Shown in pieces: positions 1-63,664 of a stretch of DNA of 64,000 nt. The stretch is from positions 69,068,001 to 69,132,000 of the forward strand of contig OZ287753.1 in the NCBI GenBank assembly GCA_965649765.1, given 5' to 3'. The translations under genes were made by a program, and so were the position numbers. How positions within the stretch are numbered: position 1 is the first letter of the stretch; the number at the start of each line of letters is the position of its first letter. Below the pieces are notes generated by a model that was not told the DNA's origin, ran no database searches, and saw nothing but the letters and a program-made list of their open reading frames with translations. Origin of the DNA: Bispira polyomma (taxonomy: Eukaryota).

Positions 1-172
1 TCTTAAGGCTGTGTGTCGCCAACTACAGGCAGATATTGGAAGGAAACCAAAGGTAGAGATTGACAAGTTTGAAAACTGGGCTACAACTAGAAAAATTGAA
101 AATCTTCTGGTTGTCAAACCAACTAGTCTGAAAGAGGTGCAATCTGTTGTAAAGGCAGCAGCCAAAAATGGG
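1..172 (+). CDS. Copy 1 exon 1 (5' partial)
   Basis: ...KFENWATTRKIENLLVVKPTSLKEVQSVVKAAAKNG, then donor GTGAGT at 173; 3 nt differences from copy 2 exon 1. Confidence 0.9.
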
Positions 173-3100
173 GTGAGTTTAGTTATTTATTTTTAGTTCT
201 ACTCTTTACTGTTGCTGTGTATTTAATAAAAAGTATATACCAACCTTAACAGTTTTACGGTCATACTTTGTTAATTTACATGGTTTTGTATAAGACACAA
301 GATCATTCGAATTGATCAGTGAAAAAAAAATCCTTGTTTTATTGGTTCATATTTGTTCATATATTTTTATATTTGACGAACAAATTTAGTAACATTTATT
401 TCTCCATACTATTAGAGTAGAGTTGTTCATACTAATACCCCTTTTCCACTATCCTGATCACAACCCCCGATTATAAGATCGGGGCGATTATCGGTAAGGT
501 CGGGGGCTTCCAATGACTTCTCTTTTCTAATTGGGGAGGTCACAGAGATTTTCAAACATGTTTTCAAACCTGGTATTCTCAGATTTTTTTCCTAGAAAAC
601 CCAAGAATAACTTAAAAAAACCTAAGAATAAGAATTTTGGCATTCATTAAAATCTTATTATCCATATTTGTAGATGGCAGTACTGTAAACAATGGCCACA
701 TGACCATCATAAACATGCGTGTGTGCACATTTCTATTTACAATTCCTATTGTAAGTATTTATTCTTAAATAAGAATTGCCTTAGAAATACTATTTCATTC
801 TAAGAATGAGAACAATTCTTAGATAAGACGATTTTCTTATTTTGAATCAAATTTGTATTCTAAGAGTAAGAATGTTAGTGCCTACAGCCCCTGGTCTATT
901 GTAAAATAACTCGTAATCCACTGAAGAAAAATTCAATTTGGCATTCTGGCAACCAACAATACCTGTGAAGTATAACTGGCAGCTCATTCTTTTTCTAACC
1001 AAGAAAAGGCTATCACCAAATAACAGAGTCAGTCCACAGCTATCACTTCCACACACACAGTAATTTGGACTGGAAACTCAAATGGATCACAGAGAGAGCG
1101 TACAAAAAGCTGAGAATGTAATGAGCCCTTGTAATAAGCATGTGTTGTGAGGGGGGGGGGGAGGGGGGGGGGGGTCAATTCACTGGAGGTATTAATTAGG
1201 CTTCTTGTGGAACTATCCATCTATAATAACTTGTTACACACGTTTTTGTCTTGACAATATAGTTACAGTGTTGTATGCCATTTTAAATACCAAGAAAAAG
1301 GACGCATTCTGGGCTAAGGACTGATAAAGCTCTTTTTTTAAGTAAATGTGTTATGAAATCGTAAATAATTAAGAGAACTGAATATTTGTTAAATGCACAA
1401 GTGTAGCTAGTATCTTTGTTTTCCTGTTTCACAATTAAGAGGGGAAAAATGGTGTTATTTGATTTTAGGTCGGTACATTCAATCTGGGCTCTACTTTACC
1501 CAAAACAAAAATGATCATACATATATGCAATAGTAAAATTACCCGAATGGTGTGTATTAAAAAAGATATATGACTAGTAATTTTGTAATACACACTACAC
1601 GAGGGTTGTTTTACATTTATTATCCACTCAAAAAGTGACAAACAGAAACAGAGAAAAAAAACAAAAACAAAAAAAAAAAAAACAAAAAAACAAAACAAAA
1701 ACACACGCACGGATAAAACAAAGTTAAACTTTGTCCTGTATTACTTTACATGCCAGTTAAGGGGCCCAGCATGACGCAATATTTCGCCAATGAGAACCAT
1801 CTCTGGGCGTGGCTTAATATAATTTGGGAGTACCAGTCACTGTTGATTTTCTGTAGCTGGTGTTTTGGTTACACAAGCTTGACCATGACCTTGTTCTCCA
1901 GAAGGGTGCAGCATCTCACAATTATCCTTCATATCCAAACTATATCGTTTCTAGTGATAAACTTTGTCCCCACACACACCAGTGACTTGGTACAGCCATG
2001 ACCCTAATCCCTAAAACAAACAAACTTAAGCATGTATAATAGATATATGACTGGGCCACCAGTTTTATGAGGTGCATGTCACTATAATATAATAACTAAA
2101 TAAAGATAATATTTAAAGCAAACAATTTTTATCTTAAAAATAGAAAAATCGACCAGAAGGGTGTGATAAACTTTATCTCCACACACACAATGCCTTTGAA
2201 CCAAAAAAACAAACAAACCATTTTTGTCTCAAAAACAGAAAAATTTACTTATATTATAAAAATAAACTGTCTTTCAGATGGTTCTCTTTCATACAGGGTT
2301 TTTGGGGCTTGCCCCCAAGTTATAAAAACTAAACTATGGCCTGTTTTGACTAACACACAGGCGGATTCACCTGGATTTGGGATAGAACTAGATTCAACTG
2401 TATTTGGTTAATATACCGTGTCCAGTTTTCCAAATTTAATCCAGTTAGTAAAACATGCAATTTCATATGGGGAAGATGTAAGTCCTACGTTCAGAAAATA
2501 TTGGTGATGGGTTCGGAATGTTGTTTTAATTTCAAACTTTGAACTGCATTTATAATTTTATAAAATTTTTGGGGTATGGGTATTTAGCGTAAGCATGAAC
2601 TATAGTATGATTTTATATTCAAGTTTCACCCAAGTCAACTTGGAGATTTGTGGAAATTTAAAGTTCAATATGCTGTATATCTCATGGCTTTCATCACAAT
2701 TATTCAAGTAATTTCCTCCGTTCAAGTAAGTTTCAAAACTAGTTCATACTCAGTTCCATCCCGTTTTCTTCACTGCAACAGGTAATGACCTAGATAAGTA
2801 TCCAGCACTTCTGGCTCCATATAAATTACCTTGAAGGAAATTCCTAGCTATTTCTTTCACCCACTTCTGGAACCTTGAAAACTCAGTGTTAGTCTTCATC
2901 TTGGTGTTCACATTACGTTTGGACTATATGTACAATAATAAATCCTTTCTGGTTGCAACTACATGTTGGTCCTCACTGTTTGAGGTCACATTTTCCTCCA
3001 CTTCCTCATTCATATCTAAACCAAGGTCAAAACTAGCGCAATCCATTCTAATAAGTTTACTATAATATTTACTACTGTTTTTGTTGTCAAAACAAACTAG

Positions 3101-62830: not shown

Positions 62831-63484
62831 CGTGGTCCTGTTTTATCGAGATTTAGCCCCAGTTGCAGGCTAACAAATCTTTGGGACACTCAAGCTTGTG
62901 TCTTTAGTTAGGAAAATGGGCTTTATGTTTATCCAGATATTAAAATATATAGATATTTATTGATTTTTTCACCTATATTCAATAATAAACTTCAAACATG
63001 TGTCACTGGAAGTCTGTGAAATATGTACAGGTATCATAATTCCCGGAATGGTTCGATACTTTCCTAGAATCCAACAAAGTTATCTTGTTGCTTTTTACAA
63101 AATTGGCAGTCTTCTATGTTGATCACACAAACAAATCTCCCCATCGACCATATGTACATAGTGCTTATTTTCTTCATAACTGTTCATTCTTGTCATTGTT
63201 GATTTTTTTCCAATAGCACTTCTGTGTCTCATCGGATTAGGGATTCCTCTTAATGTTTATTTAGTGCTAAGAAATCTCGAGATCGTTACTCCCAGAGTTA
63301 TGTCTATAAATGTCAATAGTTTAGCCTACTAAAAGCTCAGATTGACACTTTACTTCAACGGGGAATCAGTTTGTTTAGCACAATATATATGTAAATCATT
63401 AAATCTCGATTTACAATTTTTACAAGATAACGTGTAAAAAACGAAAGGATTTTATTAGCGCAAAGGAGAGATTCATCTGAAACA

Positions 63485-63664
63485 ATGGAAGATTTAGAAG
63501 AGAAGCAGCTTCAACTGCAAAACGATATTGGAAAGAAGCCACTAGTTGAGATAGGCGAGTTTACCAACTGGGCGGACACTCGCACCATACGGAACCTTTT
63601 AGTTGTGAAACCCGCATCTCTGAAAGAAGTACAGACAGTTGTTCAGGCTGCAGGGAAGAATGGG
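63485..63664 (+). CDS. FAD-linked aldonolactone oxidase-like protein, copy 3, exon 1 (gene continues beyond the window)
   Basis: MEDLEEKQ...FTNWADTR...AAGKNG|gtaaga; same 180-nt length and donor position as copy 2; 40/60 aa identical to copy 2. Confidence 0.88.

What the first reader, a model, noticed from the sequence alone, without database searches (positions are those of the whole stretch)
1..63664. Tandem array of at least three GULO/ALO-like flavoprotein genes
Seen: three same-strand paralogues with starts ~33.2 and ~30.2 kb apart. Copies 1 and 2 are about 95% identical in protein, copy 3 exon 1 is 67% identical, and all visible exons are open despite heavy transposon invasion of the introns. 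Known: animal GULO is typically single-copy or lost. Inference: a lineage-specific expansion under purifying selection, suggesting dosage or substrate diversification (sugar-lactone oxidation, H2O2 generation or detoxification) rather than housekeeping ascorbate synthesis.
Basis: partly seen in the sequence, partly recalled or inferred. Interest (0 to 1): 0.72.

Follow-up and report, generated by a model that had tools for sequence, protein, structure and literature searches.

The report
Unstudied flavoenzyme cluster, not true GULO
This marine-invertebrate chromosome carries a real cluster of five related flavin-enzyme genes (four with open frames, one broken); they are not the vitamin C enzyme GULO but belong to an unstudied sister family shared with clams, a sponge and fungi, and likely oxidise some other alcohol or sugar at a membrane.

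Summary
The array is real and larger than seen: five genes in 136 kb, plus copies on two other chromosomes. Copies 1 and 2 are five-exon, 574-aa genes, 95.3% identical, dN/dS 0.11. Their introns are only about 85% alike and their flanks unrelated, so they are paralogues, not alleles. Two first-reader points fail. Copy 3 is a pseudogene (3 stops, 4 frameshifts, all outside the window), and most transposon DNA lies between the genes. The proteins are not GULO/ALO: TIGR01678 gives 11-36 bits per exon against a cut-off of 397, and Val sits where oxidases have the oxygen-gate Gly. They keep the flavin His, Glu-x-Arg and HWAK. They belong to an unnamed VAO/PCMH clade found in bivalves, a snail, a sponge, fungi, algae and bacteria, whose fold ties between plant GalDH and type II cholesterol oxidase. 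Four of five copies end in a CaaX box. No canonical GULO was found in this genome. Expression is untested (no RNA run listed). The tandem expansion is ordinary birth-and-death; the unstudied family is the interesting part. The scan had not noted this family before (one note on a different, plant-type family).

The parts
1..172 (+). Copy 1 (gene B) exon 1; ATG lies 8 bases left of the window (G000:C6:69067993)
3626..3748 (+). Copy 1 exon 2, with the predicted flavin-linked His70 (AGARHSW)
4111..4260 (+). Copy 1 exon 3, with Val135 at the oxygen-gate position
6007..7044 (+). Copy 1 exon 4, rest of FAD domain and cap domain with Glu418-x-Arg420, Glu449 and HWAK
7475..7708 (+). Copy 1 exon 5, ending in a CaaX box (CNVL) and stop
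33240..33419 (+). Copy 2 (gene C) exon 1 from ATG
38102..38224 (+). Copy 2 exon 2
38673..38822 (+). Copy 2 exon 3
39349..40386 (+). Copy 2 exon 4
45514..45747 (+). Copy 2 exon 5, CaaX box (CNVL) and stop; intron 4 is 5127 bases against 430 in copy 1
63485..63664 (+). Copy 3 (gene D) exon 1, open; the gene runs on to C6:69147235 outside the window and is a pseudogene. Two more members lie outside: gene A at C6:69018969-69023020 (+) and gene E at C6:69150443-69154486 (-)

Best explanation
This is an old five-gene tandem cluster, turning over by duplication and pseudogene formation, of an unnamed VAO/PCMH flavoprotein family that is distinct from GULO; the intact genes likely encode covalent-FAD enzymes that oxidise a CH-OH group of a sugar lactone or polyol-like substrate, predicted to be tied to a cytosolic membrane by a prenyl anchor and likely slow with oxygen. 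Shown: gene models, copy number, selection, pseudogene, family membership, fold, motifs. Inferred: His70 carries the FAD; Arg420 and Lys483 stabilise the substrate alkoxide for hydride transfer to flavin N5, as in GalDH; Val135 blocks the GULO-type oxygen route, so another acceptor may be used; the CNVL/CALM ends are prenylated. Copies 1 and 2 most likely add dosage or split expression; the much older A and E types are the candidates for different substrates. Odds: array and non-GULO family about 0.9; chemistry class about 0.75; sugar-type rather than lipid substrate about 0.5.
For: Five loci in 136 kb with the same exon pattern. dN 0.022, dS 0.19 (NG86), omega 0.16 by YN00. Introns 2-4 85-87% and 3' UTR 83% alike over aligned columns; homology stops about 220 bases upstream and 1.8 kb downstream. 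Copy 3: 3 stops, 4 frameshifts. A pairs with P0007 (100/99) and E with P0011 (100/100), unnamed ENA proteins, while the B/C/D type shows separate expansions. Family: 263 representatives at E<=1e-30; named hits are bivalves, Littorina, Oscarella, Mucoromycota, algae, amoebae, bacteria (30 proteins looked up). Exon 4 model pLDDT 90; GalDH Z 23.5 (rmsd 2.9, 280 aligned), cholesterol oxidase II Z 22.9 (2.8, 307), AldO Z 18.8. Of 143 aligned proteins: Arg 134, Lys 132, flavin His 102, gate Val 98 and Gly 5. Roles of Arg388, Lys456, Ala113/Gly and the His from PMC11099136. PF04030 ALO in 32 of 39 members. Cys at -4 in B, C, D, E, against 2 of 139 fetched relatives.
Against: No expression evidence and no enzyme assay. 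Exon joins are inferred from splice sites and homology only. The gate assignment rests on ungapped HMM alignments, not on a superposed active site; a covalent flavin usually goes with oxidase activity. The GalDH gating-loop Cys340/Gln344 have no visible counterpart, and the cap superposes over more residues on cholesterol oxidase (304-307 against 280-295); 9 of 39 members touch PF09129. Both facts argue against a simple sugar substrate. Genes A and E lack an in-frame ATG in the first exon found, and no upstream exon was found. Gene A has no CaaX box.
Confidence: 0.62

Rival explanations
1. The enzymes work like type II cholesterol oxidase: they oxidise a sterol or other lipophilic alcohol at a membrane.
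For: Highest query TM-scores and longest alignments are with cholesterol oxidase II (TM 0.74, 471-475 residues for the mussel stand-in P0015; TM 0.69 against 0.64 for exon 4). His, Glu and Arg are also its key residues (PMC7588053 passage). PF09129 in 9 of 39 members, best E 8.9e-7. Lipid-anchor-like ends: CaaX here, Met-Gly start in 9 of 28 hits of the bivalve search.
Against: Z scores tie with GalDH; identity only 13-16%. HWAK and PF04030 point to the lactone oxidase side. No member was shown to pass the PF09129 cut-off.
Confidence: 0.25
2. The family replaces GULO: it makes ascorbate from L-gulono- or L-galactono-1,4-lactone in animals that lost GULO.
For: No canonical GULO found in this genome. 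Bivalves lack GULO (PMC6582580) yet carry several members. HWAK and Glu-x-Arg kept. A more distant VAO protein (DHCR24) is reported to do this in silkworm (PMC9602106 passages).
Against: The family also occurs in a gastropod, a sponge and fungi, groups reported to hold GULO/ALO. Gate, gating loop and the Asn363-equivalent position differ. True GULO is almost always single copy (PMC9233358 passage). Absence of GULO here rests on exon-by-exon searches that can miss short exons.
Confidence: 0.15
3. These are simply divergent, amplified GULO orthologues.
For: HWAK motif, which PMC6582580 treats as the mark of animal GULO; flavin His and Glu-x-Arg; database names 'L-gulonolactone oxidase-like' on bivalve relatives.
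Against: TIGR01678 11-36 bits per exon, 75-89 bits for full-length bivalve relatives, cut-off 396.8; 0 of 30 scanned family hits pass. Nearest non-animal kin are algal, fungal and bacterial non-ALO proteins. No Gly at the gate.
Confidence: 0.04
4. Copies 1 and 2 are uncollapsed alleles in the assembly.
For: 95% coding identity. Both forms in one diploid would also give contigs for both.
Against: dS 0.15-0.19, introns about 85% alike with kb-size indels, flanks and neighbouring genes not duplicated. Both sit in one 84 Mb contig. Contigs of runs X1 and X3 match copy-1-specific and copy-2-specific DNA without differences (these may be the source material and are not independent).
Confidence: 0.03

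Closest known systems
[quoted passage not shown]
   Same: VAO/PCMH fold, flavin His, Glu-x-Arg pair, HWAK; weak PF04030 hit (24-26 bits, cut-off 23.1).
   Different: Far below TIGR01678 cut-off; Val instead of the oxidase Gly; FAD motif AGARHS has Arg where the published motif has Gly/Ser; no conserved gating-loop Cys; likely Glu at the Asn363 position; 574 aa with CaaX tail; multicopy.
[quoted passage not shown]
   Same: Best fold match by E-value and Z; Arg388/Lys456 equivalents; non-Gly gate residue.
   Different: 16-20% identity; has the flavin His that GalDH lacks; Cys340/Gln344 loop not seen; no N-terminal extension.
Type II cholesterol oxidase (PDB 1i19, 3js8; PF09129)
   Same: Tied Z, longest structural alignment, His-linked FAD and Glu-x-Arg.
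   Different: 13-16% identity; PF09129 weak and in 9 of 39 only; bacterial and exported, whereas these show no signal or membrane helix.
Bivalve 'L-gulonolactone oxidase-like' and Mucoromycota hypothetical FAD_binding_4 + ALO proteins
   Same: Same family: 32-41% identity over exon 4, one clade of 26 rows with the named animal members (SH-aLRT 97), same conserved columns; multicopy in Mytilus, oysters, Tegillarca.
   Different: Bivalve members mostly have HLAK, an N-terminal extension and no CaaX. No functional study found in my searches.
Alditol oxidase AldO (PDB 2vfr, 8ot8) and bacterial TIGR01679
   Same: Fold (Z 35 for the full model), His-linked FAD.
   Different: Cap much smaller (Z 18.5-18.8, 240 aligned for exon 4); TIGR01679 45-46 bits against cut-off 292.

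Membership tests
VAO/PCMH flavoprotein superfamily | Two-domain FAD-binding plus cap fold | tested here: met
   Exon 4 model Z 22-23.5 to GalDH and cholesterol oxidase; full-length relative P0015 Z 36.4, rmsd 3.1, 424 aligned
GULO/ALO (sugar 1,4-lactone oxidases) | TIGR01678 score above 396.8 bits | tested here: not met
   Exons scored separately 11-36 bits, three exons no hit; full-length relatives 68-229 bits, 0 of 30 pass
GULO/ALO (sugar 1,4-lactone oxidases) | His for covalent FAD in the N-terminal motif | tested here: met
   His70 in A, B, C, D, E; linkage itself not testable
GULO/ALO (sugar 1,4-lactone oxidases) | Glu-x-Arg pair and HWAK motif | tested here: met
   EMR and HWAK in A, B, C, E; pseudogene D has HWGK
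GULO/ALO (sugar 1,4-lactone oxidases) | Gly at the flavin oxygen gate (GalDH Ala113 position) | tested here: not met
   Val135 in ungapped alignments to 7sml/8qmy; Val 98, Gly 5 of 143. A one-residue shift would give Ile, still not Gly
GULO/ALO (sugar 1,4-lactone oxidases) | Conserved gating-loop Cys and Asn363 | tested here: inconclusive
   No Cys in the loop region; Glu449 (125 of 143) appears to sit at the Gly413/Asn363 position by motif register only
GULO/ALO (sugar 1,4-lactone oxidases) | Nests in the GULO/ALO clade | not tested
   No true GULO or ALO sequence was returned by any tool, so the tree has none
GULO/ALO (sugar 1,4-lactone oxidases) | Makes ascorbate and H2O2 from the lactone | not testable with these tools
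   Needs enzyme assay
GalDH | TIGR01676 above 458 bits; non-covalent FAD (Leu for His) | tested here: not met
   12.4 bits for exon 4; His present
Type II cholesterol oxidase | PF09129 substrate-binding domain | tested here: inconclusive
   No hit for the window protein; 9 of 39 family members at E<=0.05; fold tied with GalDH
Plant GULLO (TIGR01677) | TIGR01677 above 383 bits, signal peptide | tested here: not met
   No hit for window exons, 33 bits for P0015; no hydrophobic N-terminal stretch
CaaX-prenylated proteins | C-terminal Cys-a-a-X | tested here: met
   CNVL in B, C, D; CALM in E; absent in A. Prenylation itself untested; CaaX rule is from my own knowledge

The most novel reading that the evidence does not exclude
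Animals have a second, overlooked aldonolactone oxidoreductase lineage: a lipid-anchored, covalent-FAD, dehydrogenase-type enzyme that has multiplied in bivalves and in this animal, both without GULO, and makes their vitamin C. It would also break the published rule that an animal HWAK protein is a GULO.
Probability: 0.15. Interest if true: 0.8.

Novelty: new variant of a known kind. Interest (0 to 1): 0.4.

Why it matters
How GULO-less invertebrates obtain ascorbate is an open question, and this family gives a concrete set of candidates to assay, including proteins from oysters and mussels. Even if it has no role in vitamin C, it is a widespread VAO/PCMH clade without a known substrate, mislabelled 'GULO-like' in databases, with an unusual pairing of covalent-FAD His and a bulky gate residue. 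It shows that HWAK alone does not identify GULO. The tandem array itself is ordinary.

Tried and rejected
Expression: no RNA holder listed; the three runs behave as DNA contigs and show no spliced joints; this says nothing on expression. Contig depth was not used as copy number. Copy 3's lesions could not be checked in reads (both read-laying runs went to copies 1 and 2). Single-exon phmmer against PDB gave nothing significant. The search for related loci in prokaryote genomes: 52 pattern hits, 0 confirmed; the patterns were animal-specific, so this does not show absence. Recent gene transfer from bacteria: not favoured, since the named animal rows (sponge, snail, bivalves) group with these genes and introns are shared among copies; the tree is the quick version, unrooted, with long branches for Littorina and Oscarella. 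Search for canonical GULO in G000: TIGR01678 and TIGR01679 returned only this family; PF04030 nothing (which also missed this family); PF01565 returned exons I read from recall as D2HGDH, D-LDH, AGPS and DHCR24; two motif patterns gave one chance hit each. Upstream exons of A and E: not found. dS is saturated for all pairs with A or E. Literature: searches listed no paper on this family (listings only for most).

Full report
Setting. The window is G000:C6:69068001-69132000 of a 1.035 Gb assembly in 75 contigs. Its COX1 reads best with the invertebrate mitochondrial code and its best hits are annelids at 77-79%, so the host is a spiralian, probably an annelid or another lophotrochozoan; this is a loose placement.

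Gene models. Copy 1 has five exons (ATG at -7 to 172, 3626-3748, 4111-4260, 6007-7044, 7475-7708) and copy 2 the same five (33240-33419, 38102-38224, 38673-38822, 39349-40386, 45514-45747). All introns are phase 0, GT-AG, and each gene gives an open 574-aa frame. The genes span 7.7 and 12.5 kb. The window holds 43.3 kb of intergenic DNA against 17.1 kb of intron, and the large RT/RNase H/recombinase elements are intergenic. A LINE fragment does lie in copy 2 intron 1, and its intron 4 is 5.1 kb against 0.43 kb.

The cluster. Searches of the own genome gave five loci on C6 within 136 kb: A (49 kb upstream, +, 70% identical), B and C (copies 1, 2), D (copy 3) and E (-, 57-60%, tail to tail with D). 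There are also a copy on C9 without stops in the matched parts (middle not modelled), a copy on C10 with stops, and a fragment on C8. D has a stop in exon 3, and two stops and deletions of 11, 4, 1 and 1 bases in exon 4: a pseudogene. A and E are open over five exons, but their first exon found has no in-frame ATG and starts at a shared phase-1 acceptor-like site, so an upstream exon is inferred, not found.

Paralogues, not alleles, and selection. B and C are 95.3% identical; dN 0.0215, dS 0.192, ratio 0.11 (300 bootstraps 0.067-0.176); YN00 0.157. Ten of the 27 amino-acid differences fall after residue 520, none in a catalytic motif. Introns 2-4 are 85-87% alike over aligned columns, and homology ends about 220 bases upstream and 1.8 kb downstream. 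Contigs of DNA-like runs match both copies' unique parts without differences, but may come from the source material. In an exon 4 tree A pairs with P0007 and E with P0011 with full support, so these types predate a species split, while the B/C/D type has expanded separately in relatives. P0001 and P0011, and P0004 and P0007, have longest contigs of equal length, which hints that the cluster is conserved; this was not checked.

Family. Exon 4 barely passes PF04030 and scores 32-36 bits on TIGR01678, cut-off 396.8. The exon 4 search returned 15 proteins, 14 unnamed and one freshwater mussel protein at 32%. That protein found 30 relatives, all named ones bivalve. A profile search gave 263 representatives at E<=1e-30. 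I looked up 30 proteins; the named ones were Oscarella, Littorina, bivalves, Mortierellaceae, Endogone, Racocetra, Pyropia, Undaria, Myrmecia, Filamoeba, Soliformovum and some bacteria. The Atlas agrees: Mucoromycota, Pseudomonadota and Myxococcota clusters at 0.96, a cholesterol oxidase cluster at 0.94. None of 30 hits scanned reached the TIGR01678 cut-off (best 229). A quick tree of 59 rows puts the window genes, unnamed close relatives, bivalves, sponge and snail in one group of 26 (SH-aLRT 97), which suits old vertical descent; it lacks true GULO/ALO rows.

Structure and mechanism. The exon 4 model (pLDDT 90) matches GalDH (Z 23.5, 280 aligned) and type II cholesterol oxidase (Z 22.9, 307 aligned) equally, AldO less (18.8). 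The full-length mussel stand-in gives the same picture. PMC11099136 (parts 1-3 of 6 read) shows that Arg388 and Lys456 hold the alkoxide for hydride transfer, that Gly versus Ala at 113 sets oxidase versus dehydrogenase, and that a His gives the covalent flavin. The window proteins keep His70, Glu418, Arg420 and Lys483, but have Val135 at position 113 in ungapped alignments; Val is there in 98 of 143 aligned proteins. The Cys/Gln gating loop is replaced by a conserved His-Tyr-Arg and Asp-x-Glu. There is no signal peptide or membrane helix. B, C, D end in CNVL and E in CALM although the tails are otherwise unalignable; only 2 of 139 fetched relatives have Cys at -4. I infer prenylation (own knowledge of the CaaX rule). 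Best reading: a membrane-tethered, covalent-FAD CH-OH oxidoreductase with a non-GULO substrate and likely poor oxygen reactivity. Sugar-type substrate about 0.5, sterol or lipid alcohol about 0.25; ascorbate synthesis about 0.15.

GULO in this genome. Six searches found no canonical GULO; PF01565 did find four other PCMH genes exon by exon (named from recall). Short exons could still be missed. PMC6582580 (parts 1-2 of 6 and passages) reports GULO lost in Bivalvia, present in some annelids, and proposes HWAK as its mark in animals; these genes have HWAK yet fail the GULO model. Its supplementary Figure S1 lists ten outgroup sequences that I did not see and that might include this family. PMC9233358 (abstract and passages) says GULO is almost always single copy. 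PMC9602106 (passages) gave the motif table. PMC4396506 and PMC7588053 were read as passages only. Supplementary Table 4 of PMC11099136 was not read.

Verdict. Observation mostly right, copy 3 and the intron claim wrong, GULO label wrong. Ordinary birth-and-death cluster of an unstudied enzyme family that is worth an assay. Earlier scan notes: none near this place or by sequence; one on a different plant-type GULLO array. Interest 0.4.

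Noticed in passing
window 23253-30767: Retroelement with gag-like, RT, RNase H and tyrosine-recombinase frames and split direct repeats (DIRS/Ngaro-like, name from recall); frames are broken by stops and shifts.
   Followed up: partly
window 20665-23123 (-) and 54767-58936: Two further decayed RT plus recombinase-like elements between the genes.
   Followed up: no
window 15722-19966: Element with about 760-base inverted ends, 76% alike, likely an old DNA transposon.
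   Followed up: no
window 34838-35965 (-): LINE-type RT fragment inside copy 2 intron 1.
   Followed up: partly
window 8775-9041, 59757-60028, 60360-60579: Very high-copy short element of about 270 bases; also upstream of copy 1 and of gene E.
   Followed up: no
window 5430-5871: 146-base tandem repeat in copy 1 intron 3, high-copy in the genome, absent from copy 2.
   Followed up: no
window 50601-53923: Frames that resemble a Harbinger transposon by recalled motifs; no Pfam hit.
   Followed up: no
L019-L020 and L024-L025 (C6 about 69.051-69.058 and 69.168-69.174 Mb): Two 6.6 kb elements with about 760-base terminal direct repeats, 92% alike, flank the cluster in opposite orientation.
   Followed up: no
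G000:C9:57119552-57137150, C10:35504270-35511589, C8:63968937-63969179: More family members: C9 apparently open with extra introns and a basic C-terminus, C10 with stops, C8 a short piece of an A-type exon 4.
   Followed up: partly
P0018-P0042 (bivalve search hits): Many start Met-Gly, some Met-Gly-Cys-Gly, and carry an N-terminal extension; a possible acylation anchor in place of the CaaX tail.
   Followed up: partly
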